DNA of 64,000 bases, from positions 32,001-96,000 of the IMG/VR virus record IMGVR_UViG_3300045988_177154; one strand, given 5' to 3'. Below, one piece after another: positions 44,732-63,187 of the stretch; within the stretch, counting starts at the first letter, position 1, and the number at the start of each line of letters is the position of its first letter. Made by a program: the position numbers and the translations under genes. Below the pieces are notes generated by a model, which saw only the letters and a list, made by a program, of their open reading frames with translations, searched no databases and was not told the origin of the DNA. This DNA is from a virus.

Positions 44732-44788
44732 GAAAAGAACAACCTAATGGTTGTTTTTCTTATGTCAAAAAAGAAAGGAGTTATTAAA

Positions 44789-45784
44789 ATGATTATTGAT
44801 TGTTATGTGTTTTCAGATGTAGCACTCAAACTAAATCACACTTATTATAACATTGATGATTACAAATTACTATTATATAACTTAAAGGATTATCGAGTTG
44901 ATTCGTTTTCAATCTTTACTTTTATTTATAAAGTAAAAGTAAATTCAGATGATGTACATTATCTTGGTAAATATGGAGTATATTCACTTAAGTATCAAGT
45001 AGTAGAAGAAGTTCCTTTTGGAGATTTTGTAGCAAAACTTTCACTTGGGGGATTAGAAAAAGCTGGACTAATGTCTATTATCAAAGGTACTATGCCCGAA
45101 GATAAAGCTATTAAAAAATATGAAGATATTCTAACTCTAAATAAGTATGGGTATTCATTAACTTTTATTCAAGCCCTCAAATTTCATGCTATACTAAGCC
45201 AAAAGAAATATGAACTACCAATCCTTTATGTAGATGAACAAGGTTGGTATTTAGTTAGATTATTTGAATATTACAATAGAAAATATGAAGCAAAAAATAC
45301 TTTGTCAAATTCTACTAATCATTGTGTAGAACAAGAAAGGATATTAGGTTCAAAAAAATTTGAGGAACATTTTGACATTCAAAATGCTACACTTGCGAAT
45401 GAAAGAGAACTTCAGACTTTTTATGATTTAATAAAAGGAAGAAAGCTAACACAAGAGAAATTTGAGCAGTGTTGTGCTGAATTTATGAATTTATTAGACG
45501 ATGATTATAGAAAGGAATATTTAGCAAAAATAGTTGTATTTTCCAATTATGAAATACCTGAAAAGTATAAAGATATATTTTTACCAGAAGCTGTATTTAA
45601 ATACCCAGATTGGATAAAAGACTTAAAAGAAGAGCATATCTCTTGGCAATATGCTGATGTAACAAGATTCCTTATGATTGGATATAAAGTGAAAAATGGT
45701 AATTACAACCTAGAATGGGCAAATTCAATTATGAATGCTAGAAGCATTTTAAAGAACGACAATTACAAATATATAGAAATTTAA
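44789..45784 (+). CDS. paralog family F protein
   Basis: MIIDCYVFSD start (AAAGGAG RBS). Family blocks are present. Confidence 0.7.
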   Translation: MIIDCYVFSDVALKLNHTYYNIDDYKLLLYNLKDYRVDSFSIFTFIYKVKVNSDDVHYLGKYGVYSLKYQVVEEVPFGDFVAKLSLGGLEKAGLMSIIKGTMPEDKAIKKYEDILTLNKYGYSLTFIQALKFHAILSQKKYELPILYVDEQGWYLVRLFEYYNRKYEAKNTLSNSTNHCVEQERILGSKKFEEHFDIQNATLANERELQTFYDLIKGRKLTQEKFEQCCAEFMNLLDDDYRKEYLAKIVVFSNYEIPEKYKDIFLPEAVFKYPDWIKDLKEEHISWQYADVTRFLMIGYKVKNGNYNLEWANSIMNARSILKNDNYKYIEI

Positions 45785-45792
45785 TTTAAAAA

Positions 45793-45820
45793 AGCAACTA
45801 AAAAGTTGCTTTTTATTTTT
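45793..45820 (+). terminator. intrinsic terminator
   Basis: AGCAACT-AAAA-AGTTGCT plus a T run. Confidence 0.75.
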
Positions 45821-45833
45821 TTACAAAAATGTG

Positions 45834-45862
45834 TTGACAAACTAAAAATCATATTATATAAT
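45834..45862 (+). promoter_or_regulatory. sigma-A type promoter
   Basis: TTGACA-17-TATAAT. Confidence 0.8.
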
Positions 45863-45901
45863 ATAACTACAATAAAGAAATGAAATGAGAGATAAACAAA
45901 A

Positions 45902-46681
45902 ATGGAAATTGCAAAACAATACCACGCAAAAATCAATACAGCCGGAGTTGCTTCAGCTTATAATATTTCTACTGTAACTCGAACTCTTAGCCAGGCAGTA
46001 AAAGATGCTAATCTTGCACTTCATTCAGTAGAAGTACTAACAGAAGTTCCAACAGATAACAAATTAAAAGCAGAAGTACTTGCTGCTCATACTTATCGAG
46101 TAACATGGCAAGGAAAACTAGACATTGAAGTGATTCTCCTTGTTAAATTAGTAAATGGTGCTCAAGTACTAACTATTGATGATGATTTTGCTAATATTGA
46201 ATTGACTAATTCAATTACTATTGAACCACAAGGGCTTATCCGTATGGTTGAAAATGGTGAATTATTCCTTGAAGCTGAATACCAACGTGGATTTGTTTGG
46301 AGCCACGAACACAAAGAAGAATTTTTGCTGGATTGGATTAAAGGTGGAGTTATTATTACTCCTTACCTTGTAAGTTATTACAATGGTGATAACCACATTT
46401 ACGAAGTTCTTGATGGCAAACAACGTTTACAAACAGTTTATGAATTTCTAACAAACAAAATTGCTGTTAAAGGATTGTTGTTTGAAGAATTGCTAGACTA
46501 TGATAAACGCAAAATCCTTAATCGTAGAATTGTAGGCTTGACTATGACTCAAAAATATGGTGACAACGCATATGAGCGCCCAGACATGAAAACTCTTGTA
46601 AATGCTTTCGTGAATTTCAATAAAGGAATTACAGTTGATGAAGAAGTAATCGCCAAAGCAAAAGAATTGATTGAAGAATAA
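45902..46681 (+). CDS. DUF262 / ParB-like nuclease-superfamily domain protein
   Basis: EYQRGFVW ... VLDGKQRLQT is the DUF262 (GmrS-like) signature. No DUF1524/HNH half. Confidence 0.65.
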   Translation: MEIAKQYHAKINTAGVASAYNISTVTRTLSQAVKDANLALHSVEVLTEVPTDNKLKAEVLAAHTYRVTWQGKLDIEVILLVKLVNGAQVLTIDDDFANIELTNSITIEPQGLIRMVENGELFLEAEYQRGFVWSHEHKEEFLLDWIKGGVIITPYLVSYYNGDNHIYEVLDGKQRLQTVYEFLTNKIAVKGLLFEELLDYDKRKILNRRIVGLTMTQKYGDNAYERPDMKTLVNAFVNFNKGITVDEEVIAKAKELIEE

Positions 46682-46704
46682 GCAACCCCACGGTTGCTTT
46701 TTTC
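46682..46704 (+). terminator. intrinsic terminator
   Basis: GCAACC-CCAC-GGTTGC plus a T run. Confidence 0.7.
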
Positions 46705-46753
46705 TTTTAAAAGTTATATAATATAATAAAGAGCGAAAGAAAGAGGTATGAAA

Positions 46754-47743
46754 TTGTTTATTGATTGTTATTTCTTATCAAACATTGTTAGAAAACCTGA
46801 CCATATTTACTATACTAATTATGATTATATGTTTGGCGAATTTTTCTATTTTGATTTAAACCTTTGTAATTTAGACAATATACGTTTTAACACGTACCCT
46901 TATAAAGTTAGAGTTGACTCAAATGATGTGTTTTATATTGCTAATAATGGCTTAAGAGCACTCAAATTTCAAATAGTAGAAGAAGTTAATATTTTAGATT
47001 GGATTGAAGCTTCATCTTTGAAAGATAGAGCAAAGAGTCATTTGAAATCAATTTGTAATGGTTCTGTACTTCAAGATAAAGTGTTAGAATTTTATGATAA
47101 AACTATTATAACTCCAACTGCTTTATTGACTACAGCTCAAATTTTTAAATTGCATGCTATTTTGAGCCAGAAAAAATATGAATTGCCTACAAGAGTAATC
47201 ACTAATGGAAATAAAAGCTATTTGCGAGCTTATGAATTTTATGGCAGAGAATATGAATTTGATTCTAATCATAAACCTTTTTTCAAAGTGTTTGAAGCTG
47301 AAGCTGCCTTGGGGTCTAAAAGATTTGAATATATTGAAAATGAAGATAGTGAAATCCTTATGTCAGATGTGTCAAGTTTTTTAAAATTAGTAGCATCAAG
47401 AAAATTAACTCAAAATCAATTTGAGTATTGTTGTATGTACAGTCCTTTTTTAACTACAGCTGACAAAAAGAAATTTGTTAATACAGCATTACGAGCAAAT
47501 TATGAAATTCCTCATGAGGGCAGACACTTATTCTTTCCCGAAATCATATTTAAACACCCAAGTTGGGTAACAGAATTAAAGACGAAACATTTAGACAATG
47601 ATTATGCTAGAGCTAGATTACTCTTGTTAGGCTATAAATTGAAAGATTATAATTATCATCATTCTTATTGGGCTACTAATATTGAAAACACTAGACGAAT
47701 TTTTAAAAATGCCGTGTATCAATATATAGAACTTGATGATTAG
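46754..47743 (+). CDS. paralog family F protein
   Basis: TTG start 7 nt after AAGAGG gives (M)FIDCYFLS, aligned with the other family N-termini. The ORF-track ATG at 46748 is only 1 nt from the RBS. Confidence 0.65.
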   Translation: MFIDCYFLSNIVRKPDHIYYTNYDYMFGEFFYFDLNLCNLDNIRFNTYPYKVRVDSNDVFYIANNGLRALKFQIVEEVNILDWIEASSLKDRAKSHLKSICNGSVLQDKVLEFYDKTIITPTALLTTAQIFKLHAILSQKKYELPTRVITNGNKSYLRAYEFYGREYEFDSNHKPFFKVFEAEAALGSKRFEYIENEDSEILMSDVSSFLKLVASRKLTQNQFEYCCMYSPFLTTADKKKFVNTALRANYEIPHEGRHLFFPEIIFKHPSWVTELKTKHLDNDYARARLLLLGYKLKDYNYHHSYWATNIENTRRIFKNAVYQYIELDD

Positions 47744-47759
47744 ATAGAAAGAGAAAACT

Positions 47760-48740
47760 ATGAAAATTAAATGCTATTTATTTACAGGTATAGCAAAACA
47801 AGAAAATCATACTTATTATTCATTAGGAGATAATCGAGGTTCAAGATTTTATTATAATTTGAGAGAGGGACTCAATAGAGAAGAAATTAAAATAGCTCCA
47901 TTTGTTTATGAAGTAGAGTTAGACTCAGAAGATATATGTACAATTACTTCTTATTATTTAGAAACAACAAAATTTAAATTAGTAAGAGCAGTTGAATTTA
48001 GAGAAGTTGTAGAAGTTTTAGATGTTTCAAGTAGAACTCGAAACGAATTGAATGCTATCCTTAGATGTGTGAGTGATAAAGCACAAATCATTCAACAATA
48101 TAAAAAATTGCTTTCAAAAGATTATAGTGATTTATCTAGGATAGAGTTTTATAAATTTATTGCTATTATAAGTCAAAAACATTATAAATTACCACTAATT
48201 GAATTTTCTTGCTTTAGAGCATTTAAATATGTTCGGCTATTGGAATTTTATAATCAGCCACATAGATATGCTCTTGCTGGAAGGGGTTATAGTTTTGTAG
48301 CTTATAATAAAGAAAAATTTTATGGAAGTAGAATATTTGAAAATCTGTCAGATTGTACTATAAATGATTTGCTTAGAGAACACGATATTAGGGTACTTTT
48401 ACAGACTAGGAAATTGTCGCAGAAAAAATTTGAAGAATATTGTGAATATAAGTTTAAAAATAAAGATAAGATTTATAATGCAGATGAATGTGTGGGGGCT
48501 GGATATGAAATTCTACCAAAATATAAAGAGCAATTCTACCCCTATATAATCTATTCTAATCCTGAGTTAGCATTAGATTTGGTAAAAAAAGGCTTGAGCA
48601 CCAATGATTATCAAACTTTATTACTTTTAAGAAAAGGATATAAAATCAGAGATTTTGATTATGATAATAATTATAGAGTCTTTGCTACAACACAAAAAGC
48701 CCAAAAGATTTTCATGAAAAATGATTATAAATATATTTAA
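47760..48740 (+). CDS. paralog family F protein
   Basis: MKIKCYLFT start. Family blocks are present. Confidence 0.7.
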   Translation: MKIKCYLFTGIAKQENHTYYSLGDNRGSRFYYNLREGLNREEIKIAPFVYEVELDSEDICTITSYYLETTKFKLVRAVEFREVVEVLDVSSRTRNELNAILRCVSDKAQIIQQYKKLLSKDYSDLSRIEFYKFIAIISQKHYKLPLIEFSCFRAFKYVRLLEFYNQPHRYALAGRGYSFVAYNKEKFYGSRIFENLSDCTINDLLREHDIRVLLQTRKLSQKKFEEYCEYKFKNKDKIYNADECVGAGYEILPKYKEQFYPYIIYSNPELALDLVKKGLSTNDYQTLLLLRKGYKIRDFDYDNNYRVFATTQKAQKIFMKNDYKYI

Positions 48741-48757
48741 GAGAAAGGATAAGAATT

Positions 48758-49741
48758 ATGGCTGTTAAATGCTATTTATTTACAAGTGTGGCTAGACAAT
48801 TAAATCATACTTATTACTCATTAGAATATAATAAATCTTTATACTTTTACCATAATTTAAATGATTATCATAAAGAAGTGAATAAAATTCTATTAAATCC
48901 CTTTGTTTATGAAGTAGAAGTTGAGCCTAAAACAGTGATTGCTTGTGATTCCTTAGGTTTAGTTGCAACGGAATTTAAACTTGTTAGAGAAGTAGAACTT
49001 ACAGAACTTATCAATGCTTATAAATTTTCAATAAAAACGAAAAATGAAATCAATTCTATTCTTAATGGGCTTGCTGATTCATCAGAAGTAATTTCTTTAT
49101 ATAAAAGATTTTTTAAAAAATCTAAATGGGACCTGTCTAAAATTGAAAAATTCAAATTCTTAGCTATATTGAGTCAAAATCACTATAAATTACCTGTTAT
49201 GAAGATTCGTGAAAATTCTGGTATGGAATATGTTAGGATATTGAAATTCTTTAACAAACCTTACATACCCGCCTTTAGAAGCAATGATAGTACGTTTGAT
49301 AGATTTATTGAAATAGAAGAACTTTATGGAAGCAAAGATTTTGAAACTGGTGTAGAATTACCTATGAAAGAACTGGTTTGCCATATTAACTTGAAACAAT
49401 ATATAGAAACAAGGAAATTATCCCAAGAACAATTTGAAGAGTATTGTGAATATATGTTTACTGAAGAAAGAACAATATATTACACTTCTCATGCTATAGC
49501 AGCTGGATATAAAATTTTACCAAAATACAAAAAACATTTTTATCCATATTTAATTTATTCTGACCCCGAAATGGCATTAGAATTGCTTAATAAAAGGAAT
49601 TTAACTCGTACTGCAGTTATTTATTTCTATGAAAAGAATTATAAAATAGGTGATTACAATTACTCTAATGATAAAGTTAGAGAAACAAAAGCAATCTTTG
49701 TAAAAGAAGATGATTATAAATGTATTGAAGTAGCAACTTGA
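48758..49741 (+). CDS. paralog family F protein
   Basis: MAVKCYLFT start. Family blocks are present. Confidence 0.7.
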   Translation: MAVKCYLFTSVARQLNHTYYSLEYNKSLYFYHNLNDYHKEVNKILLNPFVYEVEVEPKTVIACDSLGLVATEFKLVREVELTELINAYKFSIKTKNEINSILNGLADSSEVISLYKRFFKKSKWDLSKIEKFKFLAILSQNHYKLPVMKIRENSGMEYVRILKFFNKPYIPAFRSNDSTFDRFIEIEELYGSKDFETGVELPMKELVCHINLKQYIETRKLSQEQFEEYCEYMFTEERTIYYTSHAIAAGYKILPKYKKHFYPYLIYSDPEMALELLNKRNLTRTAVIYFYEKNYKIGDYNYSNDKVRETKAIFVKEDDYKCIEVAT

Positions 49742-49797
49742 TAGTTGCTTTTTCTTTTTGTTTATTATATAATATAATAGAGCGAAAGGAGTTAATT

Positions 49798-50781
49798 ATG
49801 ATTATAAAATGCTATTTGTTTTCAGATAGAACTAGACAATTAGGTCATACTTATTATTCATTAGGAATGGGAGATTATTTGTATTTTGAGCTTAGCTCAT
49901 ACCAAGATTATTTTCACATTGGTGACCCATTTGTTTACGAAGTAGAAGTTGATACAGACAAAATATTGTATTGTGATAGTGAAAGTGTACACTCTATTGA
50001 GTACAAGATAAGTAGAGTAATCAAATTTGAAGAATATATTTTTACGTTTGAGTTTCCAAAAGATGATTTAAAAGAATTACTTAATATACTTGATGGAAAT
50101 ATTGACAAAAATGAAATGATAGAATTTTATACTGCAATCATTAGTAAAGATGTTTACAAAGTAAATAGGTTTGAGCAATTAAAACTTTTTGCAATATTAA
50201 ATCAAACAAAATATGAGCTGCCAGAAGTAACAATAGAAAAAGAATTTCAAATGGATTACTATGTTAAGCTTTTAATTTATTACAATAAACCTTATCAAGC
50301 TATTTGTAAACATTCCGCCAAAATTTCTGGGTTTAGAAAAGAACTTAATAAGCAGAGAATGCGGGGAACTACTACTTTTGAAACAATTTCAGATGAAATC
50401 ACCGAAAGATTAGCTTATAATTATTTTTTAGATGAATATATACTAAATAGACAACTTACTCAAGAACAATTTGAAAGTTTATGTGAGTACTTCAAGTGGA
50501 ATACACATATTTTTAAATTTAGAATAAAACTTAGTTCAATTGCAGCTGGTTACAAAATTCTACCAGAACATAGAAGTCTTTTTTATCCTTTTGTGCTTTA
50601 TCATGGAATAGAAGATAATTTGGATATAATTGACCGTGAGAAAAAGCCTGATGAATTATTAAAGATTTTATTTAACTGCGGTTATAAATTTAAAAATGTT
50701 GATTATAGCGACATGCCTTCACATGATAAAATTACTGAAGCAAAAATCATCTTTCAAAAAGGATTTAAATATATAGAATAA
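49798..50781 (+). CDS. paralog family F protein
   Basis: Start moved to MIIKCYLFS (AAAGGAG RBS). Confidence 0.7.
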   Translation: MIIKCYLFSDRTRQLGHTYYSLGMGDYLYFELSSYQDYFHIGDPFVYEVEVDTDKILYCDSESVHSIEYKISRVIKFEEYIFTFEFPKDDLKELLNILDGNIDKNEMIEFYTAIISKDVYKVNRFEQLKLFAILNQTKYELPEVTIEKEFQMDYYVKLLIYYNKPYQAICKHSAKISGFRKELNKQRMRGTTTFETISDEITERLAYNYFLDEYILNRQLTQEQFESLCEYFKWNTHIFKFRIKLSSIAAGYKILPEHRSLFYPFVLYHGIEDNLDIIDREKKPDELLKILFNCGYKFKNVDYSDMPSHDKITEAKIIFQKGFKYIE

Positions 50782-50925: not shown

Positions 50926-50954
50926 TTGACAAATGAAATACTATATAATATAAT
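50926..50954 (+). promoter_or_regulatory. sigma-A type promoter of the E1/Ubl/JAB cassette
   Basis: TTGACA-17-TATAAT. Confidence 0.8.
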
Positions 50955-50983: not shown

Positions 50984-51409
50984 ATGGCTACTACTGAAGA
51001 ATTACTAACAGAAGCTAGAGAATATTTTGCTCAATTGGAAAAACCAAATGAAGAATTAAATGTTGACTATAATTCTGATTATGTGTTATTTGATGAAATA
51101 GATAAAGAAAATCTAAATAAAAATGGTAGACGAGTATTGCTACTTGACTTAAATAACGGAATGAAAGCTGCATTTTTACTAATACCAGATATGGAACAAA
51201 ATCGTTTTACTTTATCTAAGATTAAAGAAACTGCATCTGTACGATTACTTACAAAAGAAACAAAAAATACAGTAAAACAATTTACTTCTCATAAAGGATT
51301 TTTCCCTACTCTAACTTTAGAACAACAAGGGGATATTACTGGAGCTGTTGTTAAATTAAAAGATGGTTCTTATGCAACAATTACTGAACAATTGGAGGTA
51401 ATTAAATAA
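50984..51409 (+). CDS. hypothetical protein (141 aa, no Cys), first gene of the E1/Ubl/JAB cassette
   Basis: Behind promoter 50926-50954. Its stop overlaps the start of the E1-like gene (TAATG). Confidence 0.6.
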   Translation: MATTEELLTEAREYFAQLEKPNEELNVDYNSDYVLFDEIDKENLNKNGRRVLLLDLNNGMKAAFLLIPDMEQNRFTLSKIKETASVRLLTKETKNTVKQFTSHKGFFPTLTLEQQGDITGAVVKLKDGSYATITEQLEVIK

Positions 51410-52089
51410 TGCTGAAAATTAAAGAAGGCCGAAAATATTATATTGTACTAGGTGCTGGTGGAACTGGGTCTTGGCTTGCACAATTCCTATCTAAAATTGA
51501 AGTTCCAGTATACCTTATTGATGGTGATGTGGTGGAACCTAAAAATGTTCTCCGTCAAAACTTTGTCAATGAAGAAGTAAATATGAGCAAAGCAGAAATT
51601 GCTAAAAAATGGGATTTTGCTTATGTGCCTGAATTTTTGAGTGATACTTCTATTATTGATGAAATTATTGCTCAAGAAGAAGGCACACCAGTACTTGTAG
51701 GTTGCTTAGATAACAATGCTACTCGTAAAATTGCTCAAGATGTATTCTACAATCCTAATTACAAAGACATTTTGTGGTTAGACGGTGGAAATGCAGAGCG
51801 ACATGGTCAAGCTTATGTTGCGGCTAAATATGATAATGAAGTTCATTATGAAAGTCCTATTGCTCTTGACCCAGCATTCCAAAACTTTGAAGGTGATGAA
51901 CGTAGACCAGACCAGATTTCATGTGCTGAACAATCTGAGTCTGCGCCACAAAACGTAACTGCAAACGTTACTAGTGCTACATTGTTATTTAATCTAATTA
52001 ACTTGATTGAAGAAAATGCTATGTTGCTTGGAAATAAATTTATGTTCCACACAAAATTATGTAGTATGACAACAACAGAAATTGTTTGA
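51409..52089 (+). CDS. ThiF/MoeB/E1-like adenylyltransferase
   Basis: Rossmann GAGGTGS, then IDGDVVEPKNVLRQNF (the DxDxVExxNLxRQ signature of E1-like enzymes). Cys in PDQISCAEQ. Confidence 0.75.
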   Translation: MLKIKEGRKYYIVLGAGGTGSWLAQFLSKIEVPVYLIDGDVVEPKNVLRQNFVNEEVNMSKAEIAKKWDFAYVPEFLSDTSIIDEIIAQEEGTPVLVGCLDNNATRKIAQDVFYNPNYKDILWLDGGNAERHGQAYVAAKYDNEVHYESPIALDPAFQNFEGDERRPDQISCAEQSESAPQNVTANVTSATLLFNLINLIEENAMLLGNKFMFHTKLCSMTTTEIV

Positions 52090-52114
52090 CAAAGTTTGAT
52101 TAACCTGATAAAAT
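52086..52114 (+). promoter_or_regulatory. sigma-A type promoter overlapping the E1-like gene stop
   Basis: TTGACA-17-TAAAAT. Confidence 0.65.
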
Positions 52115-52145
52115 AAATTTATAAATATGAAAGGAGTTCATTGTC

Positions 52146-52310
52146 ATGGCTTTTAATCCTAGTCAGATTAAATTTGTTCAGTACAAAGGAGAAAAATTTC
52201 CCTTGAATGGAGCAGATTATAATAAAGTTCTTGATTTGCTGAAAATTCCAAAATCAGCAACAGTAACAATTGTAGGTAATACAATTATTGTTACCACTCG
52301 AAAAAGTTGA
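52146..52310 (+). CDS. small Ubl-like (possible beta-grasp) protein, 54 aa
   Basis: Hand-translated MAFNPSQIKFVQYKGEKFPLNGADYNKVLDLLKIPKSATVTIVGNTIIVTTRKS. AAAGGAG RBS. Behind promoter 52086-52114. Paralogous to the N-terminus of 52537-53070. Confidence 0.5.
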   Translation: MAFNPSQIKFVQYKGEKFPLNGADYNKVLDLLKIPKSATVTIVGNTIIVTTRKS

Positions 52311-52319
52311 TAAAAATAG

Positions 52320-52348
52320 TTGACAAACGCTAAATCACTTGTTATAAT
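52320..52348 (+). promoter_or_regulatory. sigma-A type promoter driving the orphan omega-RNA-like element and gene 52537
   Basis: TTGACA-17-TATAAT. Confidence 0.8.
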
Positions 52349-52352
52349 GAAA

Positions 52353-52491
52353 TTAAAGGAAATAATCAAATTGTGTTATTTCTAATAGATGTACCATATT
52401 TAATCATTAAATTTGGAGTCTATCCTCTATTTGAGGTATTACCTTGCAACTCACTTATTTATTACAATAAGTTACAGGTGTAAGCAACAAT
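52353..52491 (+). ncRNA. orphan omega-RNA-like element (copy of the 3' segment of TnpB-like gene 39171-40667)
   Basis: 139 nt alignable to 39310-39163 (minus strand) with compensatory hairpin substitutions and in-frame stops. Begins about 5 nt after the -10 box of promoter 52320-52348. Confidence 0.6.
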
Positions 52492-52536
52492 GTAAATATA
52501 AAATAAAAAATAAAATTTTGAAAGGAGCTATTTAAA

Positions 52537-53070
52537 ATGGCTACAAATATTTATGAAAACGTTACGGAGATTGTTTTCCAAAACAATCGCTTCCCACTGA
52601 ATGGTGCTTCTGTTGATGATGTACTTGCATTGCTAAACGTCCCAGACAATGCAGAATTGGCAGTAGAAGGTACTGCTCTTCTAATTACAGAAAAATCTGG
52701 TACAAAGGGTGCTGACCCTGACCCAGAATTGATTGCTAAGTTGGCTGCTACTTTTGGTGGCGAAGCAATCAAAGGTGCTAGTGTGAAACTCCACCGTGCT
52801 TCAAATGGTAAATGGGTACCAAAAATCCCTGGTTTCACTCTTGATGAAGTTGCTTACTTGCTTGAAAAAGATGTAGAACTTTCAGAAGAAATGACTGATG
52901 AACAAGTTGAAATTGCTCGTCAAGCTCTTGAACAACGTGATGCTGAAATTGAAGCACAACGTGTTGCAGAAAAACAAGCTTTAGTAACAGAAGCTCTTGA
53001 AGGCTCAGGTCTTAACTTCACTTATGACCAATTGGTCTGTTTGCAAAAAGCTCTTGATGCTATTCGCTAA
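52537..53070 (+). CDS. Ubl-like N-terminal module fused to an acidic helical C-terminal region
   Basis: EIVFQNNRFPLNGASVDDVLALLNVPDNAELAVEGTALLITEKSG aligns with the 54-aa ORF. Visibly more G/C-rich codons than neighbouring genes. Confidence 0.6.
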   Translation: MATNIYENVTEIVFQNNRFPLNGASVDDVLALLNVPDNAELAVEGTALLITEKSGTKGADPDPELIAKLAATFGGEAIKGASVKLHRASNGKWVPKIPGFTLDEVAYLLEKDVELSEEMTDEQVEIARQALEQRDAEIEAQRVAEKQALVTEALEGSGLNFTYDQLVCLQKALDAIR

Positions 53071-53098
53071 AAACAACACACTATTTAACAAAAAAAGA

Positions 53099-53130
53099 AA
53101 ATCACACTTCAGTGTGATTTTTTTATTTTT
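53099..53130 (+). terminator. intrinsic terminator after gene 52537-53070
   Basis: AAATCACAC-TTCA-GTGTGATTT plus a T run. Confidence 0.8.
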
Positions 53131-53145
53131 TAATACACTTTTCGG

Positions 53146-53174
53146 TTGACAAATTCATAATTGTTTGATAGAAT
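53146..53174 (+). promoter_or_regulatory. sigma-A type promoter
   Basis: TTGACA-17-TAGAAT. Confidence 0.7.
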
Positions 53175-53204
53175 ATATAATATAATAAGAAAGGGGAAAA
53201 TACA

Positions 53205-53942
53205 ATGCCTATTTTAGAACTAGACGCTAGTCAATATGTGAAGCAAGGTCGAATTTTTAAGAAATTTGATTCTAATTTGCTTGATTCATATATGGACGGT
53301 AGACAAAATAACTATAATATTAACTTAGCAGAATTAGATGACCAAATTTCTGATGGTATCGTTTATGCTGACCGAAATGGTAAAATGATTTACAAATTTG
53401 GAGCTAAGAAAATTATTCAAACAGCAATCACAAATGGATTGGAAATTAGTGGGTTGTCTAAGGATTTAGAAATGAAGCATTATTCATTTTGGGTACCTGA
53501 TTTATATTTTGTTTCATTTTACAGTTTTAATCCAAATGAAGATTTATATATTGCATACCGTAGCAAAGATGAAGAATTTATTTGCTTGACAAATATTTGG
53601 CCTGACGGTTCGAGCTATGCAGAGGATTATTTCCCTAATGGTGACCGATTAACTCTTAAAAGACTTTGTAAGGGTAGCATGATGTCAGATGTTAGTTCGA
53701 GCGATTATGACGCATGGAGAAATAATGCTGTCACTCGTGCTAGTCAATTTGTAAATAAATTTGTAAGTGCTCGAGGAAATTCTGACTTAGATTTTGTTGG
53801 TAGTGCATTGCGAAGCAAAGTACCGAGTCATAATATTAAAAAATGTGCAGTATTTCTTGGCACAATTACAAAAGAACAAGAAAATGTAAACACTTATGAA
53901 GAGTTCATGGAATGGACTAAAAATACAAAATGGTTTAAATAA
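53205..53942 (+). CDS. hypothetical protein, tentative E2/UBC-like candidate
   Basis: FNPNEDLYIAYRSKDEEFICLTNIW recalls the E2 HPN...ICL arrangement. Position is between the Ubl and JAB genes. Motif-level guess only. Confidence 0.3.
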   Translation: MPILELDASQYVKQGRIFKKFDSNLLDSYMDGRQNNYNINLAELDDQISDGIVYADRNGKMIYKFGAKKIIQTAITNGLEISGLSKDLEMKHYSFWVPDLYFVSFYSFNPNEDLYIAYRSKDEEFICLTNIWPDGSSYAEDYFPNGDRLTLKRLCKGSMMSDVSSSDYDAWRNNAVTRASQFVNKFVSARGNSDLDFVGSALRSKVPSHNIKKCAVFLGTITKEQENVNTYEEFMEWTKNTKWFK

Positions 53943-53965
53943 AAAGAAAGTGAGAAATAAATAAA

Positions 53966-55144
53966 ATGAAATTAGTAGAACTTTACTCATCAGAACAATT
54001 TAAAAAAGAATCTGACCGTGGTATGATTAAAACAGTTATTGTCGGAAAAGACGGTACGTATGAAGAACAAAATTCTTGGTTAGGTACTTCTCTGAAAAAA
54101 GTACATGATTATGGAGTTATTACATTCCCCGAAGTTACTGAATTTGTAAAAGTAAAAAATGTAAATGTTACAAAAATTCCAGCAATTGCCATTAAAACAG
54201 TAATGAAATGGTACAAAGACATTACTGATAAGAATGGAGAAGAAGCACAAGTAAACTTTTATCTTAAAAGTCGTAAATTGGGCGGAACTCCACAAGATGG
54301 TATTTACAAATTAACTTATACTGAAGAAGATGAATTTGGAATTGAAACAGAAAAGACAGTTAAATTAGAAGATATTCCGGGGCTTAACTTTTGGAATGAT
54401 GATGTATTCTCATATACACCAAAACAAGAAAATTCACACGGCCAAACAAGTACAGATGACCCAATCTATACAGCTCTAAATCAACAATATGGAATGTTTT
54501 TGGAAACACATTCACATAACAGCATGCCAGCATTTTGCTCAAGTACTGACTATGCAAATTCTCAAAATGACGCTGTTCAATTAGTATTTGGGAAATTCAA
54601 AGGCTCTCATATTGAAATGTATAACTGGATTACAGTAAGTCAAAAGCTTAAGGAAGGTTTTGATGCTCATGTATTGGAAAAATTTGTAGAATTTCCAACT
54701 TATTCTGTAAATACAGCAGAAAAGAAATTGAACTTTGATTTTTCTGTACTTTCAGGTGTTGATGAAACAATTCTTGAAGAATGGGATAAACAAGTTATCA
54801 AACCTAAACCTATTGTACGTTCATTTGGATATGGTAGTTATGGTGGCGGATATGCTAACACAATTTGGTCTACTTCAGATACAACTCGTTCACCTTGGAC
54901 TCCAAAACATGGTTCTACTGTAACATCATACAAATCAACTCCAGCTAAGATTGAAGAAGGTTCTGAAAAAGCAATTATTGATTTACTAGAAATGTATGGC
55001 AATGATGCAATTAGTGTGATTGAAAATCTAGTAAGTATTTACAAATCAGCTATTTCAAATGCTACTTATGTAAGCAAGACTGAAACAGAAATTCAAGATG
55101 AAATTGTCACTCTTGTATCGGATGCAATTGATGAACTTTTCTAA
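53966..55144 (+). CDS. JAMM/JAB (MPN+) metallopeptidase domain protein
   Basis: Exact JAMM core H-S-H-NSMPAFC-S-ST-D (HxHx7Sx2D) with an upstream Glu (GEEAQV). Additional ~200-aa C-terminal region. Confidence 0.75.
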   Translation: MKLVELYSSEQFKKESDRGMIKTVIVGKDGTYEEQNSWLGTSLKKVHDYGVITFPEVTEFVKVKNVNVTKIPAIAIKTVMKWYKDITDKNGEEAQVNFYLKSRKLGGTPQDGIYKLTYTEEDEFGIETEKTVKLEDIPGLNFWNDDVFSYTPKQENSHGQTSTDDPIYTALNQQYGMFLETHSHNSMPAFCSSTDYANSQNDAVQLVFGKFKGSHIEMYNWITVSQKLKEGFDAHVLEKFVEFPTYSVNTAEKKLNFDFSVLSGVDETILEEWDKQVIKPKPIVRSFGYGSYGGGYANTIWSTSDTTRSPWTPKHGSTVTSYKSTPAKIEEGSEKAIIDLLEMYGNDAISVIENLVSIYKSAISNATYVSKTETEIQDEIVTLVSDAIDELF

Positions 55145-55160
55145 ACGCTAAATTTTGAGA

Positions 55161-55190
55161 AAAGTTATCCAAAATTGGATAACTTTTTCT
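55161..55190 (+). terminator. intrinsic terminator after the JAB gene
   Basis: AAGTTATCCAA-loop-TTGGATAACTT plus a T run. Confidence 0.8.
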
Positions 55191-56436: not shown

Positions 56437-57417
56437 ATGGAAAACAAAACAGAATTAGTAAAACTACTTAATCAAATTTCAACGCTTTTAGAAGGTGAAG
56501 AAGAGCGCTTTAAACATTTGCTAGAACAATTGAAAACTGCTATCAATACAAAAAGTATTGCTCGAGAAGCAGAAACATTAGCAATGAACTTGATTGAAGA
56601 ACGTTATGGTAAATTACCAGAGATTACTAAAATTCAGATTGGTAATAATAAACCAAAAGAAATTAAAGGCTTGACTCACTCTTCTTTTAAATCCATTTTG
56701 ACTTTGCTTGCAAATGGAGAAAATGTTTTGCTTAATGGTCCGTCAGGTACTGGTAAAAACGTGCTTGGTAATCAAATTGCTGAAGCATTAGGATTGGAAT
56801 TTTACTGTACTCCAGCTATTCGACAAGAATATAAATTGAGTGGCTTTATTGATGCAAACGGAAACTTTGTTGAAACTCCATTCTACAAAGCTTGGACAAA
56901 TGGCGGTGTTTATCTATTTGATGAAATGGATGCTTCAGATGCTACCGTTATTCTTAATATTAACTCTGCTCTAGCAAATGGTTATTATGAATTTCCTATC
57001 GGATTGAAAAAGAAACATAAAGATTTCTATATTCTAGGTGCAGGCAATACTTTAGGAAATGGTGGCGACCGTATCTATACTGCTCGTGAAGAATTAGATG
57101 CTTCTACAATTGACCGATTTGCTGTAGTACCATTTGGATATGATGAAAAATTAGAGCGAGAACTTGCTGGAAATGAAAAGATTTATGAATTTATTATCGC
57201 AGTTCGAAAAGCAATTGAAGAAACTGGACTTCGCTATGTTGTATCTATGCGAGCGACAAAAAGTTTAGCACAATTGTATGGCAAAATGGATATTCAAGAA
57301 CTTGTTAAATATGTTGTATGTAGAAATATGCGAACAGCAGACATTAAAACAATTCTTTCACGTTGTAAATGCCCAGTAGATAATCCATTCTATATTGCTC
57401 TTAAAAATATTGATTAA
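56437..57417 (+). CDS. MoxR/CobS-type (AAA_5) AAA+ ATPase
   Basis: Walker A LLNGPSGTGKN, Walker B VYLFDEMD, and the sensor/arginine region TIDRF. Confidence 0.7.
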   Translation: MENKTELVKLLNQISTLLEGEEERFKHLLEQLKTAINTKSIAREAETLAMNLIEERYGKLPEITKIQIGNNKPKEIKGLTHSSFKSILTLLANGENVLLNGPSGTGKNVLGNQIAEALGLEFYCTPAIRQEYKLSGFIDANGNFVETPFYKAWTNGGVYLFDEMDASDATVILNINSALANGYYEFPIGLKKKHKDFYILGAGNTLGNGGDRIYTAREELDASTIDRFAVVPFGYDEKLERELAGNEKIYEFIIAVRKAIEETGLRYVVSMRATKSLAQLYGKMDIQELVKYVVCRNMRTADIKTILSRCKCPVDNPFYIALKNID

Positions 57418-57696: not shown

Positions 57697-57778
57697 AAAA
57701 GCGCTGTTTTGCAAAGCGCTTTAGCTGTTGTTACTCAACTGTTTAGAGCATCTGTAAAATGGCGTAATGATAAAAAAC

Positions 57779-58030
57779 AGTATTTTACCGGTGATTATCA
57801 GTATTTTACCGGTTTTTTTGAGTATTTTTGGTCATTTTTTGAGTATTTTACCGGTTTTTTTGAGTATTTTTGGGCCGATTTTAGTATTTCATTACTGAGT
57901 ATTTTACCGGATTTTTAATTGCTTTGTTTTAGTTTTGAATGATTTCACTGAGTATTTTTGGTCTGTTTTTGAATTTTATATATGAGTATTTTTAGGCTTT
58001 TTCAAAATGCTTGATGAGTATTTTACCCTT
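57779..58030 (+). repeat. iteron-like array: 10 direct copies of AGTATTTT(A/T)(C/G)(C/G)
   Basis: Copies start at 57779, 57800, 57821, 57842, 57863, 57883, 57898, 57951, 57985 and 58017. Two alternating variants occur: AGTATTTTACCGG and AGTATTTTTGG(T/G)C. Confidence 0.8.
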
Positions 58031-58103: not shown

Positions 58104-59147
58104 ATGAAAGACGTTATTGAAACAGTAAATACTAAAATCAAAATTTATAGTAAAGAAGAATTTGAAAATGTAGCAAAAGGTTTAAGATTGAGCAATCGTA
58201 ATAATCAATCTGAAATGGCTTCGCCTGAATTTGCAGGTACTGAATCTTTAGCAGAAGCAGAAAAATTACGAAGCGATGGGGATATGGATAGTTATAGACA
58301 AATCCTATATTTTGTTAATAAATTTATTTCTTATACAAAGTATAATAAAAAGATTTCAAAAAATAAAGAAGATGTAGTAGGATTTTCACCTAATGTTTCA
58401 GCGACACTTATGGGTGTTCCTAAAAATATGTTTAATCGTGAAGAACGTAGACTTCCTATGAAAGAGATTTCTATTGCAATCTCGCCTACATTTAGTGCAA
58501 AATATACCACACAAGAAATTATTACATTCGGAACTGTAATGATTAGTTTGATTGACAAATTAGAAAATGAAAATATTAAAGTTAATCTTTATGTATTGTT
58601 TAATATGGGTGTTGACTCAGAAGTCATTAAAGTAAAACATAAAAAAGAACGACATTATTACTCTCCTATCACACAAGCAAAAGCAAGTGTTTATGACATT
58701 GGAAGATTGTTTAAATTAACAGATAAGAAGATTGCTAGATACAAAGATATAGTTAAAACTTATTATGAAACTTTCAAACCAACGAAAGAAGAAGATTTTA
58801 ATACAGAGGGATTTCTTTATCAATTAAAAGCAGCTTCTGACCCATTGAATACATTTGATTGTGCTTATTATATTGTAAACCCATCATTCTTACGCAGACA
58901 TTGCTTGAAAATTCTTGAAACAGACCCATTCTTTACTGATGTTACGTTTGATAATTATGGAGTAGCTTCTCTTAAAAGTGCAGCCATGGCTGAACAAGCT
59001 ATTAAGAAAAAATATAAAGATGTAGCATTCTTTTCTGTTTGGAATAGCAAATTCACTGACCCAGAGAAAATTGGTGATTACATTGAAGCTGCTTACGCTC
59101 GACTCAATAAAGAATTTCCCGACATTTTCAAGAAAAAACAAAAATAA
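58104..59147 (+). CDS. hypothetical protein (347 aa)
   Basis: ORF track. Behind promoter 58041-58069. Confidence 0.6.
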   Translation: MKDVIETVNTKIKIYSKEEFENVAKGLRLSNRNNQSEMASPEFAGTESLAEAEKLRSDGDMDSYRQILYFVNKFISYTKYNKKISKNKEDVVGFSPNVSATLMGVPKNMFNREERRLPMKEISIAISPTFSAKYTTQEIITFGTVMISLIDKLENENIKVNLYVLFNMGVDSEVIKVKHKKERHYYSPITQAKASVYDIGRLFKLTDKKIARYKDIVKTYYETFKPTKEEDFNTEGFLYQLKAASDPLNTFDCAYYIVNPSFLRRHCLKILETDPFFTDVTFDNYGVASLKSAAMAEQAIKKKYKDVAFFSVWNSKFTDPEKIGDYIEAAYARLNKEFPDIFKKKQK

Positions 59148-62824: not shown

Positions 62825-62840
62825 GACTGCCACCTCCTAT

Positions 62841-62912: not shown

Positions 62913-62923
62913 TTAAATTAACT

Positions 62924-63072: not shown

Positions 63073-63081
63073 TTTTAATTT

Positions 63082-63154: not shown

Positions 63155-63187
63155 TTCCTAGTAAAATAAATATATATTAGGTGACCT

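What the first reader, a model, noticed from the sequence alone, without database searches (positions are those of the whole stretch)
50984..55144. Phage-borne ubiquitin-like conjugation cassette: E1-like, two Ubl-like ORFs, possible E2-like protein and JAMM/JAB peptidase
Seen in sequence: 51409-52089 carries the Rossmann GAGGTGS plus IDGDVVEPKNVLRQNF, which is the DxDxVExxNLxRQ signature of ThiF/MoeB/E1 adenylating enzymes. 53966-55144 carries an exact JAMM core, HSH-NSMPAFC-S-ST-D. Two ORFs between them (52146-52310 and the N-terminus of 52537-53070) share a ~45-aa module (FPLNGA..(D/N).VL.LL..P......(V/I).G..(L/I)(L/I)(I/V)T), short for a beta-grasp fold. 53205-53942 contains FNPNEDLYIAYRSKDEEFICLTNIW, which recalls the E2 HPN...Cys loop. 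The whole set is flanked by its own promoter (50926) and a terminator (55161). Established knowledge: E1+E2+Ubl+JAB operons exist in bacteria as antiphage or regulatory systems (Bil and Bub type systems, CBASS Cap2/Cap3). They also occur in the TIGRFAM-defined PRTRC cassette (ParB-related, ThiF-related) on mobile elements. Inference: this set sits in a phage-like accessory region, with a DUF262/ParB-like gene 5 kb upstream and a MoxR AAA+ gene downstream. It could be a virus-encoded Ubl conjugation or deconjugation system, serving counter-defence or modification of host or virion proteins. No sulfur-transfer or cofactor genes (ThiS/ThiG/MoaE) accompany the E1-like gene.
Basis: partly seen in the sequence, partly recalled or inferred. 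Interest (0 to 1): 0.85.

Follow-up and report, generated by a model that had tools for sequence, protein, structure and literature searches.

The report
Jumbo-phage ubiquitin-like E1–E2–Ubl–JAB gene set
A giant bacteriophage carries its own four-part ubiquitin-like protein-tagging kit (activating enzyme, carrier-enzyme-like protein, small tag made as a fusion precursor, and a trimming protease). It is a distant, undescribed relative of the uncharacterised bacterial "PRTRC / 6D" cassette.

Summary
All six ORFs, the quoted motifs, the outer promoter and the terminator are present.

- **51409-52089:** a ThiF/E1 adenylating enzyme with an invariant Cys172.
- **53966-55144:** a JAMM/JAB metallopeptidase with invariant E93, HSH, S192 and D195; its family hits PRTRC_A.
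- **u54 and the first 58 residues of p177:** paralogous, and homologous to Pfam Prok_Ub / PRTRC_C (hhalign 96%).
- **p177:** its Ubl module ends in an invariant GTKG, followed by a variable linker and a C-terminal domain, so it looks like a precursor. u54 lacks the Gly tail.
- **p245:** belongs to an unannotated family homologous to Prok-E2_D / PRTRC_B (hhalign 92.6%). No UBC fold was recovered by structure search.

The window is a jumbo phage (near-identical IMG/VR contigs of 260-315 kb). Every JAB-bearing viral locus also has a Ubl and exactly one of the two E2-like families. The p245 type was seen only in phage contigs.

The set fails the PRTRC thresholds and lacks ParB, D, E and F. It is best called a new phage variant of the 6D/PRTRC kind. 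Conjugation itself is inferred and the target is unknown.

The parts
50926..50954 (+). Sigma-70-type promoter (TTGACA-17-TATAAT, 12/12) ahead of p141-E1
   Evidence: sequence
50984..51409 (+). p141, a 141-aa protein of unknown function. Its stop codon overlaps the E1 start by one base (TAATG-type coupling). It is clade-specific.
   Evidence: ORF. Orthologues only in L005-L007. No Pfam, NCBIfam, PHROG or PDB hit. No profile similarity to neighbours of related cassettes.
51409..52089 (+). E1-like ThiF-family adenylating enzyme, 226 aa, with a single adenylation domain. Invariant residues: G15xG17G18xG20, D40, N46, Q50, D101-N102, R106 and Cys172 (nt 51922-51924).
   Evidence: Pfam ThiF 2.1e-13. 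Best NCBIfam family is PRTRC_ThiF, 3.8e-13, below its cut-off. Invariant columns. PDB profile hits: UBA2 5.5e-12, UBA5, ThiF 1.9e-8, MoeB 9e-6.
52086..52114 (+). Promoter (11/12, TG-extended -10) ahead of u54
52146..52310 (+). u54, a tail-less paralogue of the Ubl module, 54 aa. It ends TTRKS* with no G-x-K-G tail.
   Evidence: Paralogy to p177, E about 1e-7. Orthologues in L005-L007 all stop right after the last strand. dN/dS 0.27-0.71. Own promoter and RBS.
52320..52348 (+). Perfect promoter (12/12, TG-extended) ahead of p177, conserved in L005-L007
52353..52491 (+). Insertion of about 140 bp in the p177 5' leader, absent from orthologous loci. It is 90% identical to the 3' end of the TnpB-like gene at 39163-39310 (-). 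It is not part of the Ubl system proper.
52537..52710 (+). Ubl module of p177 (aa 1-58), a divergent Prok_Ub / PRTRC_C-type module ending in the invariant SGTKG
   Evidence: hhalign against Prok_Ub repeats 96.2%, E 2e-9, controls at or below 1%. Near-invariant across 16 homologues up to G58. AF2 secondary structure is beta-beta-alpha-beta-beta, but pLDDT is only about 55-65.
52711..53070 (+). C-terminal extension of p177 (aa 59-177): a variable linker, a short R-x-x-NGKWVP hairpin motif and long helices. It is presumed to be released by cleavage after G58.
   Evidence: Variable linker directly after KG. The motif recurs in extensions of other clades; hhalign between two of those clades (C2 vs C3) gives 59% over 20 columns, while the window clade (C1) scores 0.4% and 2.9% against them, so for the window the motif link is by eye only. 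No PDB or Pfam hit.
53095..53124 (+). Intrinsic-terminator-like hairpin plus T-run after p177
53146..53174 (+). Promoter (11/12, TG-extended) ahead of p245-JAB
53205..53942 (+). p245, the E2-like protein of a previously unannotated family ('E2w'). Conserved N130 (nt 53592-53594; invariant in every alignment), Cys155 (nt 53667-53669) and N192, D194, L195 (invariant in A1-A3, present in at least 90% of the 55-sequence A4).
   Evidence: Family alignments. 62 representative clusters in 1.8e9 proteins, none with a Pfam hit. hhalign against Prok-E2_D-type proteins 92.6%, E 4.7e-7, with all three motifs in register. AF2 pLDDT 75.7, pTM 0.78. No PDB fold match.
53966..55144 (+). JAMM/JAB metallopeptidase, 392 aa, with an N-terminal alpha+beta region and a variable C-terminal region. 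Catalytic residues: E93, H182, H184, S192, D195 (motif at nt 54509-54550).
   Evidence: Invariant columns. TIGR03735 PRTRC_A in 7 of 8 family members, best 3.3e-8. Pfam Prok-JAB in 2 of 8.
55159..55188 (+). Terminator-like hairpin after the JAB gene

Best explanation
This is a jumbo-phage version of the prokaryotic four-component ubiquitin-like system known bioinformatically as Iyer et al. 2006 type '6d', or the core of the PRTRC cassette. It has an E1, a Prok_Ub-type Ubl, an E2-like protein with a conserved Cys, and a JAB peptidase.

Proposed mechanism. Steps 1-3 are inferred from homology and sequence architecture; steps 4-6 are inference only.
1. p177 is made at high level from its own consensus promoter as a precursor: a Ubl module (aa 1-58, ending GTKG) fused to a C-terminal domain.
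2. The JAB Zn-peptidase cuts after Gly58. This frees the Ubl with a C-terminal Gly and releases the C-terminal domain. Eukaryotic DUBs process ubiquitin-ribosomal-protein fusions and polyubiquitin in the same way.
3. The ThiF-like E1 binds the Ubl and adenylates Gly58 with ATP.
4. The Ubl is passed to the invariant Cys172 of the E1 as a thioester, and then
5. to the conserved Cys155 of the E2-like p245.
6. p245 transfers it to a lysine of a target that is still unknown (a phage virion protein or a host protein). The JAB may also reverse the modification.

The tail-less u54 cannot be activated. It most likely acts as a non-conjugatable binder or regulator of E1, E2 or JAB.
For: Component identities:
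- E1.
- JAB.
- Ubl: the window-type module set is homologous to tandem repeats that pass the Pfam Prok_Ub (5e-27) and TIGR03738 (8.8e-17) cut-offs. Negative controls score at or below 1%.
- E2-like: p245 family against proteins that hit Prok-E2_D (3.3e-8, above its cut-off) and PRTRC_B. The profile comparison gives 92.6%, and N130, C155 and the GN.DL motif align with PFSN, ICWG and PFN.DL.

Genomic association. In 31 JAB-bearing IMG/VR loci:
- All carry one, and only one type, of the two E2-like families, except the 10-kb fragment L033, where none was detected.
- All but one also have a Ubl.
- An E1 lies within 9 kb, or elsewhere on the same contig.

Precursor logic:
- The module is nearly invariant up to ...SGTKG, and the sequence is variable directly after it.
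- In sister clades the same module occurs free and ending exactly in GSKG* (L009/L010), with a 1-residue cap (L025/L026), as 2-6 tandem copies each ending in G(T/V)KG plus a short cap (L001, L002, L037-L044), or fused to other extensions.
- The Ubl gene has its own 12/12 promoter and terminator.

Invariant Cys residues are present in both E1 and E2-like proteins. No sulfur-transfer or cofactor genes appear among the neighbours scanned.
Against: - No biochemical evidence exists for any member of the 6D/PRTRC kind.
- The UBC fold of p245 was not recovered. Foldseek against PDB had best E 0.44 and a sequence profile against PDB found nothing. The only structural link is a weak BFVD hit (prob 0.87, TM 0.39) to a 241-aa protein. 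That protein is probably the Bacillus-phage Prok-E2_D-type protein.
- The Ubl model has low confidence (pLDDT 63.6) and no beta-grasp hit.
- That Cys172 lies in the crossover loop is inferred from its position only.
- Cleavage after G58 is inferred. p177 could work as an uncleaved Ubl-domain protein.
- Targets are unknown and no E3-like protein was identified.
Confidence: 0.6

Rival explanations
1. The set is a Ubl-dependent, non-conjugating chemistry. The E1 adenylates the Ubl C-terminus for sulfur transfer (ThiS/MoaD/CysO/QbsE-like thiocarboxylate) or another acyl-adenylate reaction. The JAB only trims the carrier, as Mec+/QbsD do.
For: ThiF, MoeB, TcdA and MccB are all among the E1's PDB relatives. 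Systems that pair a JAB with a sulfur carrier are established knowledge (CysO-Mec+; also discussed in Iyer 2006). The Ubl ends in a single Gly after Lys, not the classical GG.
Against: No rhodanese, cysteine desulfurase, ThiG, MoaE or CysM-type partner was found among neighbours in the window or in related loci. The cassette is always accompanied by an E2-like protein with a conserved Cys. Poly-Ubl and Ubl-fusion precursors are not a feature of sulfur carriers.
Confidence: 0.12
2. The set is mainly a deconjugation or counter-defence device. The phage JAB, perhaps with the decoy-like u54, removes or blocks host Ubl conjugates (Bil-type tail tagging, CBASS Cap2 priming). The E1 and E2-like proteins have an accessory role.
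For: Host Bil and type II CBASS systems act by Ubl-like conjugation and are reversed by JAB peptidases. u54 lacks the activatable tail but is kept as an ORF with its own promoter.
Against: The JAB always co-occurs with its own Ubl, E1 and E2-like genes, in phages and in bacterial elements. The JAB's closest family is PRTRC_A, not Cap3 or BilC, and PADLOC models gave no hit for it.
Confidence: 0.12
3. The set is a plasmid-like partition or maintenance module, the usual informal reading of the 'ParB-related, ThiF-related cassette'.
For: PRTRC is annotated and discussed as a 'partitioning cassette'. Related E1 genes sit on large non-mobilizable Firmicute plasmids.
Against: No PRTRC ParB, D, E or F proteins are present. 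The nearest ParB-superfamily gene is a GmrSD_N/DUF262 protein 4.3 kb upstream, inside an unrelated paralogue array, with no TIGR03734 hit. Nothing in the four core proteins suggests DNA segregation.
Confidence: 0.04
4. p177 is not processed. It is a structural or regulatory protein with an N-terminal Ubl domain, and the resemblance of p245 to E2 enzymes is only distant shared ancestry without catalysis.
For: No fold confirmation exists for p245 or the Ubl. The extensions share a conserved hairpin motif, which suggests a function of their own.
Against: G(S/T)KG is invariant at the module boundary and is followed by hypervariable sequence. Sister phages encode the same module ending exactly at KG or as tandem repeats. 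C155 and N130 are conserved across 55 diverse family members.
Confidence: 0.1

Closest known systems
PRTRC cassette (TIGR03734-03742), equivalent to operon type '6d' of Iyer, Burroughs & Aravind 2006 (Pfam Prok_Ub, Prok-E2_D, Prok-JAB, ThiF)
   Same: It has the same four-protein core: a short single-domain ThiF-type E1, a JAB with an extra N-terminal alpha+beta region, an E2-like protein with a conserved Cys and without the classical His, and a roughly 60-aa Ubl ending in x-K-G. PRTRC_ThiF and PRTRC_A are the best-scoring NCBIfam families. The Ubl and E2 are linked through profile comparison. Both are carried on mobile DNA and neither has been characterised experimentally.
   Different: All scores are far below the PRTRC cut-offs. 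There is no ParB and no D, E or F proteins. The E2-like protein belongs to a separate unannotated family with a 24-residue insertion between the N and Cys motifs; this family was seen only in phage contigs. The Ubl is made as a fusion precursor alongside a tail-less paralogue. The genes form four transcription units. The host replicon is a lytic-type jumbo phage.
Poly-Ubl cassettes of Bacillus jumbo phages (vB_BceM_WH1 gp211-216, vB_BauM_KLEB27-3 gp194-199, Edson) and related IMG/VR contigs L037-L044
   Same: They have homologous E1 (about 30% identity), homologous JAB (E 1e-9 to 1e-12) and homologous Ubl modules, and they sit in jumbo phages.
   Different: Those phages use the Prok-E2_D-type E2, encode the Ubl as 2-6 tandem repeats (polyubiquitin-like), have the gene order Ubl...E2-JAB-E1, and carry a 509-559-aa extra protein.
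Bil (BilABCD) and Bub antiphage ubiquitination-like operons; CBASS Cap2/Cap3
   Same: The logic of E1, E2, Ubl and peptidase is shared, and those systems have been shown to perform protein conjugation.
   Different: Bil E1 has tandem IAD-AAD plus a CYS domain, and its Ubls are ISG15-like. Bub uses Ser/Tyr oxyesters and the DUF6527 protease. Cap2 is an E2-E1 fusion that acts on a CD-NTase. Here the E1 is a 226-aa single domain, both Cys residues are conserved, and there is no DUF6527 or CD-NTase. PADLOC gave only partial Rossmann-region hits. Those systems are host defences, whereas this one is phage-encoded.
Eukaryotic ubiquitin precursor genes (polyubiquitin; UBA52 / RPS27A fusions)
   Same: The tag is encoded as a C-terminal fusion, or as head-to-tail repeats with a short cap in sister phages, and needs an endopeptidase to expose the terminal Gly. 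This is established knowledge for ubiquitin. Here the parallel is sequence architecture only.
   Different: The C-terminus is K-G rather than G-G. The module is shorter (about 58 aa, four predicted strands and one helix). The fused partner is not a ribosomal protein. Processing has not been demonstrated.

Membership tests
PRTRC system (NCBIfam/TIGRFAM) | ThiF-family protein reaching the TIGR03736 cut-off (144.75 bits) | tested here: not met
   49.3 bits, E 3.8e-13. It is the best-scoring family but far below the cut-off.
PRTRC system (NCBIfam/TIGRFAM) | Protein A (JAB) reaching the TIGR03735 cut-off (101.8 bits) | tested here: not met
   Window protein 17.4 bits, E 0.0026, over the JAMM motif only. 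7 of 8 family members hit at E<=0.1, best 3.3e-8.
PRTRC system (NCBIfam/TIGRFAM) | Protein B (TIGR03737 / Pfam Prok-E2_D) | tested here: not met
   No hit for p245 or for any of 55 family members. There is only a profile-profile link (92.6%) to a group that hits Prok-E2_D at 3.3e-8 and PRTRC_B at 1.6e-5.
PRTRC system (NCBIfam/TIGRFAM) | Protein C (TIGR03738 / Pfam Prok_Ub) | tested here: inconclusive
   No direct hit for u54 or p177. The profile of window-type modules matches repeats that do pass both cut-offs, at 96.2%, E 2e-9.
PRTRC system (NCBIfam/TIGRFAM) | ParB-family protein (TIGR03734) and proteins D, E, F in the cassette | tested here: not met
   No such hits among the 16 neighbouring proteins scanned. 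The GmrSD_N/DUF262 gene 4.3 kb upstream has no NCBIfam hit.
E1 / ThiF / MoeB adenylating enzymes | Rossmann-type GxGxxG, the DxD...KNxxRQ and DNxxxR nucleotide-binding motifs, and a Pfam ThiF score above the cut-off | tested here: met
   PF00899 50.4 bits against a cut-off of 28.1. The motifs are invariant in 13 sequences. PDB relatives are UBA2, UBA5, ThiF and MoeB.
JAMM/JAB metallopeptidases | E ... H-x-H-x7-S-x2-D metal and catalytic motif | tested here: met
   E93, H182, H184, S192 and D195 are invariant in 8 sequences spanning 21-75% identity. Family hits. The fold itself was not modelled.
E2 / UBC superfamily | UBC fold with a catalytic Cys a few residues after an (H)PN-like motif | tested here: inconclusive
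   Conserved N130 and C155 align with the PFSN-x7-8-C(W)G motif of Prok-E2_D-type proteins, but they are 24 residues apart in p245. The order of secondary-structure elements (helix, beta-meander, N, Cys, helices) is compatible. Foldseek against PDB and an HMM against PDB found no UBC structure.
Ubiquitin-like beta-grasp proteins | Beta-grasp fold with an exposed C-terminal Gly | tested here: inconclusive
   Predicted beta-beta-alpha-beta-beta order, with G58 at the module end. pLDDT is only about 55-65 and Foldseek gave no hit. Homology to Prok_Ub is supported.
Bil / Bub / CBASS Cap2-Cap3 | Multidomain E1 (IAD-AAD-CYS) or an E2-E1 fusion, a DUF6527 protease or a CD-NTase partner, and a PADLOC model match over the full length | tested here: not met
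   Only partial PADLOC 'E1-E2' hits to E1 residues 10-67. There were none for the JAB, Ubl or p245. The architectures differ from those described.

The most novel reading that the evidence does not exclude
Jumbo phages run their own ubiquitin-like protein-conjugation pathway during infection. It would use a phage-specific E2-like family (the p245 type) and eukaryote-style tag precursors (a Ubl-fusion here, poly-Ubl in Bacillus jumbo phages). It would covalently mark virion or host proteins, for example to protect or assemble virion parts or to disable host immunity. The tail-less u54 would act as a built-in regulator. This would be the first experimentally tractable Ubl conjugation system of a bacterial virus, and the first function for the 6D/PRTRC kind.
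Probability: 0.4. Interest if true: 0.8.

Novelty: new variant of a known kind. Interest (0 to 1): 0.62.

Why it matters
All bacterial ubiquitin-like conjugation systems studied so far (CBASS Cap2, Bil, Bub) are host systems, mostly antiphage. The 6D/PRTRC kind has been known from sequence since 2006, yet no function has been shown for it.

A complete E1, E2-like, Ubl and JAB set is conserved across dozens of jumbo-phage contigs. It has a phage-restricted E2-like family and ubiquitin-style precursor genes. This suggests viruses of bacteria also use Ubl tagging.

The system is compact and well suited to experiment: four small proteins, a defined predicted cleavage site (G58) and two candidate catalytic cysteines. 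It also extends the parallel between prokaryotic and eukaryotic ubiquitin gene organisation.

A broad comparative survey of jumbo phages (PMC7824862) does not mention such a system.

Tried and rejected
- **Nucleotide search:** the cassette against GenBank phages gave no match.
- **Direct family searches:** Pfam, NCBIfam, PHROG and PADLOC gave nothing for u54, p177, p245 or p141. None of 55 p245-family members hits Pfam.
- **Structure of p245:** the AF2 model (pLDDT 75.7) had no PDB fold match (best E 0.44). BFVD returned only the identical protein plus weak hits.
- **Structure of p177:** the AF2 model has low confidence and no fold match.
- **Sequence profiles against PDB:** nothing for the JAB, the p245 family, the p177 C-terminal domain or p141.
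- **Neighbouring genes:** I tested whether p141, p159, p160 and p63 correspond to the conserved neighbours of the cassette in L008-L013 or in the Bacillus phages. There was no profile similarity, so I did not count them as parts of the system.
- **Early small alignments:** these gave only weak Ubl and E2 links. The links became significant only after more loci were added.
- **Pattern scans:**
  - A scan with the large p245 alignment failed because no stretch was conserved enough.
  - A JAB pattern scan of 185,579 representative genomes found no relative.
- **Rejected readings:**
  - A lambda-type tail-assembly Ubl/JAB pair, because there are no tail genes and E1 and E2 are present.
  - Thiamine or molybdopterin pathways, because there are no partner enzymes.

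Full report
**What is there**

- p141, 50984-51409
- E1, 51409-52089
- u54, 52146-52310
- p177, 52537-53070
- p245, 53205-53942
- JAB392, 53966-55144

Each has a Shine-Dalgarno-like sequence. The quoted motifs can be read directly in the translations.

The region is AT-rich (about 30% G+C). The window carries phage-type genes: a Dda-like helicase, an RNA ligase, a polynucleotide kinase, a CobS-like AAA+ ATPase and a DUF7192 protein, plus a tRNA cluster.

The E1 gene is 94-99% identical to genes on IMG/VR viral contigs of 262-315 kb, and the whole cassette is syntenic there. p245 is 100% identical to UniProt A0A8S5RVV4 of 'Siphoviridae sp. ctHip2'. The window is therefore a piece of a jumbo phage known only from metagenomes.

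**Transcription layout**

The outer promoter (50926, 12/12 consensus) and the terminator (55159-55188) are real. There are also three more near-perfect promoters, at 52086, 52320 (12/12, conserved in the sister phages) and 53146, and an internal terminator at 53095-53124.

This gives four units: [p141-E1] (stop and start overlap by one base), [u54], [p177] and [p245-JAB]. The Ubl-fusion gene has a consensus promoter and a terminator of its own. That fits a protein needed in substrate rather than catalytic amounts (inference).

**E1**

- Pfam ThiF scores 2.1e-13, above its cut-off.
- The best NCBIfam family is PRTRC_ThiF (3.8e-13), but at 49 bits it is far below that model's cut-off of 145.
- In an alignment of 13 phage and plasmid relatives the nucleotide-binding motifs are invariant: GxGGxG, D40, N46, Q50, D101-N102 and R106. 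So is Cys172 in ...ISCAEQSESAPQN.
- A profile search of PDB finds SUMO E1 UBA2 (5.5e-12), UBA5, TcdA, MccB, Uba1, ThiF (1.9e-8), Cap2 and MoeB (9e-6).
- That Cys172 lies in the crossover loop is my inference from its position.

**JAB**

E93 and H182-S-H184-x7-S192-x2-D195 are invariant across eight proteins that share as little as 21% identity. This is the exact JAMM spacing.

Seven of the eight proteins hit TIGR03735 PRTRC_A (best 3.3e-8), and two hit Pfam Prok-JAB. The KLEB27-3 orthologue is annotated 'PRTRC_A domain-containing'.

The N-terminal region, with its conserved basic residue and Trp (...KTVMKWYKDI...), matches what Iyer et al. describe for the JAB of their type 6d operons. No PDB relative was found by sequence, and I did not model this protein.

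**Ubl modules**

u54 and the first 58 residues of p177 are paralogues (E about 1e-7). Neither hits a library family directly.

Related phages make the assignment clear:
- In L009/L010 the short gene is 59 aa and ends exactly in ...PTGSKG*.
- In L025/L026 the module carries a one-residue cap.
- In many clades it is followed by an extension.
- In Bacillus jumbo phages and in L037-L044 it occurs as 2-6 head-to-tail repeats, each ending AG(T/V)KG, with a short cap after the last.

The KLEB27-3 repeats pass the cut-offs of Pfam Prok_Ub (5e-27) and TIGR03738 PRTRC_C (8.8e-17).

A profile of 27 window-type modules matches a profile of 27 such repeats with 96.2% probability (E 2e-9, 52 columns). Fifteen unrelated profiles scored at or below 1%.

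In p177 homologues the module is almost invariant up to S-G-T-K-G58, and the sequence immediately after it is variable in length and composition. That is the signature of a processing site.

The AF2 model gives beta-beta-alpha-beta-beta for residues 11-51, but with pLDDT of only about 55-65, and Foldseek found nothing. The beta-grasp fold therefore rests on homology to Prok_Ub and not on a structural test.

u54 and its orthologues stop right after the last strand and have no Gly tail. The ORF is nevertheless kept in four genomes with dN/dS of 0.27-0.71, and it has its own promoter and RBS.

**The p177 extension**

The extension comprises residues 59-177. It has no library or PDB match and is predicted to form a small hairpin plus long helices.

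A short motif, R-x-x-NG-K/R-(W/L)-V-P, recurs in the otherwise unrelated extensions of three clades. It lies at different distances from the KG site. The hhalign support (59% over 20 columns) is between the two non-window clades; the window clade scores 0.4% and 2.9% against them, so its share in the motif is by eye only. I treat the extension as a real domain of unknown role.

**E2-like protein**

p245 is homologous to 238-303-aa proteins next to the cassettes of L008-L013. An exhaustive HMMER search of 1.8 billion representative proteins found only 62 clusters. None of 55 members hits Pfam.

N130 is invariant in every alignment. C155, N192, D194 and L195 are invariant in the closer alignments and present in at least 90% of the 55-member set, as is P98.

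Proteins in the equivalent position in the Bacillus phages and Firmicute plasmids hit Pfam Prok-E2_D (3.3e-8, above its cut-off) and PRTRC_B.

The two families align at 92.6% probability (E 4.7e-7, 112 columns). PltN aligns to PFSN, klCxG to iCWG, and GNxDL to PFNxDL. Controls scored at or below 0.2%. In p245 a predicted beta-hairpin of about 24 residues separates the Asn from the Cys, whereas the Prok-E2_D type has 7-8 residues there.

The AF2 model is reasonable (pLDDT 75.7, pTM 0.78). The order of its elements is helix, beta-meander, Asn, Cys, helices. It has no PDB match. Its only other signal is a weak BFVD hit (prob 0.87) to a 241-aa protein, which is probably WH1 gp214.

So p245 is E2-like by homology to a family that its authors classify as E2. 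A UBC fold has not been shown.

**Association across genomes**

A scan of IMG/VR with JAB motifs returned 31 loci, nearly all on contigs of 130-315 kb. HMM mapping shows:
- All loci but the 10-kb fragment L033 have a p245-type or a Prok-E2_D-type protein, never both types.
- All but one have a Ubl.
- An E1 lies within 9 kb in most loci.
- In the L017-L027 clade the E1 lies roughly 13-30 kb away on the same contig where both genes were located, and there are two p245 paralogues.

In total 221 IMG/VR stretches encode a related E1.

In representative bacterial genomes the JAB motifs found nothing. E1 relatives of 27-36% identity occur in 43 loci, mostly gut Oscillospiraceae and Ruminococcaceae. 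Wherever an E2-like gene was detected there (29 of the 43 loci), it was the Prok-E2_D type. Within my sample, the p245 family is restricted to phages.

**Comparison with known systems**

The closest known kind is the PRTRC cassette, which matches row 6d of Iyer et al. 2006: Ubl, JAB with an N-terminal alpha+beta domain, E1, E2-like protein and an alpha-helical protein, carried on mobile elements.

The Corbett-lab papers identify 6C as type II Bil and 6E as Bub, and they treat the other families as uncharacterised. A 2026 paper on Burkholderia prophages states that the PRTRC function 'has not been studied'. [quoted passage not shown] The Aravind-lab survey of 224 jumbo phages does not mention a Ubl, JAB or ThiF system.

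The window cassette fails every PRTRC score cut-off and has no PRTRC ParB, D, E or F. The nearest ParB-superfamily gene is a GmrSD_N/DUF262 protein 4.3 kb upstream, inside an array of seven paralogous genes. I therefore file it as a new phage variant of the 6D/PRTRC kind, and not as a PRTRC member.

It is not Bil, Bub or CBASS:
- The E1 is a single 226-aa domain.
- Both candidate catalytic Cys residues are present.
- There is no DUF6527 protease and no CD-NTase.
- PADLOC gave only partial Rossmann-region hits.

**Mechanism**

The mechanism I think most likely is this. JAB392 cuts p177 after Gly58. The E1 adenylates the freed Ubl and may carry it on Cys172. p245 takes it on Cys155 and passes it to a lysine of an unknown target. 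The JAB may also reverse the mark. u54 acts as a non-activatable regulator.

What is shown: the identities of the parts by homology, the conserved residues, the precursor architecture and the strict gene association. What is inferred: the cleavage, the thioester relay, the conjugation itself and the target.

One lead on the target deserves a mention. In Bacillus phage WH1 the five-fold poly-Ubl gene (gp211) is annotated 'virion structural protein'. I could not trace the basis of that label.

**Verdict**

The finding is real, and its interpretation is essentially right, with three corrections: the E2 motif, the operon structure, and PRTRC relationship rather than membership. It is a new variant of a known but functionally unexplored kind, borne by jumbo phages, and it is directly testable.

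Noticed in passing
window 52353-52491 (+) and window 39163-39310 (-): A segment of about 140 bp sits between the consensus promoter and the RBS of p177 and is absent from the orthologous loci L005-L007. It is 90% identical to the 3' end of the 498-aa ORF 39171-40667(-). That ORF has a Cas12f1-like TNB (TnpB) domain and a PHROG 'transposase' hit. The insert lies in the same sense as tnpB, so it looks like a solo right-end or omega-RNA-like copy transcribed from the Ubl promoter.
   Followed up: partly
window 43772-50781 (+): Seven paralogous genes of 319-347 aa with no Pfam, NCBIfam or PHROG match. The array is interrupted by a GmrSD_N (DUF262) gene at 45902-46681, and there is a DNA methylase-domain gene at 42410-43411 just upstream.
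   Followed up: partly
L001:1781-2680 (Bacillus phage vB_BceM_WH1 gp211): The gene annotated 'virion structural protein' consists of five tandem Prok_Ub-type repeats, each ending AGTKG. If the label rests on virion proteomics, the Ubl (or its conjugates) is packaged in virions. Homologues were found only in Edson and KLEB27-3.
   Followed up: partly
L017-L027, L036 (IMG/VR contigs of 47-248 kb): This phage clade carries two paralogues of the p245-type E2-like gene about 1.5 kb apart, downstream of the JAB. Its Ubl has an acidic linker and a short extension. Its E1 lies roughly 13-30 kb away on the same contig where both genes were located.
   Followed up: partly
L011:3595-5979 and L013:442-2826: Nine tandem paralogous genes of 78-86 aa (consensus M.L.VGD.V.IEPLS...K..YP.GW...) lie immediately upstream of the E1 gene in this clade.
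   Followed up: no
window 56437-57417 and 58104-59147 (+): A CobS-like MoxR AAA+ ATPase (phrog_249, 9e-52) and a DUF7192 / phrog_1909 protein lie downstream of the cassette. The ATPase's synteny with the cassette is conserved in L005-L007. No link to the Ubl system was found.
   Followed up: partly
window 57709-57918 (+): The intergenic stretch between the AAA+ gene and the DUF7192 gene contains a short repetitive sequence. In one frame it translates as repeated FTGFFEYFW units, which suggests a DNA tandem repeat.
   Followed up: no
window 61298-62083 (+) and 62479-63734 (+): A microbial-type PARG catalytic domain plus Macro domain protein (2.7e-22), followed by a cluster of four tRNA genes.
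   Followed up: no
L033 (IMGVR_UViG_3300007100_000140, 10,080 bp): This contig is an inverted duplication of the Ubl-fusion and JAB genes (the same two ORFs on both strands). It is probably an assembly artefact.
   Followed up: no
L045-L086 (bacterial genome contigs, mostly gut Oscillospiraceae / Ruminococcaceae): A conserved arrangement occurs in many gut Clostridia genomes: JAB (about 450-560 aa), then E1, and about 5.5 kb further on a Prok-E2_D-type gene. My Ubl HMM did not detect a Ubl there at E<=1e-3. The intervening genes were not examined.
   Followed up: no
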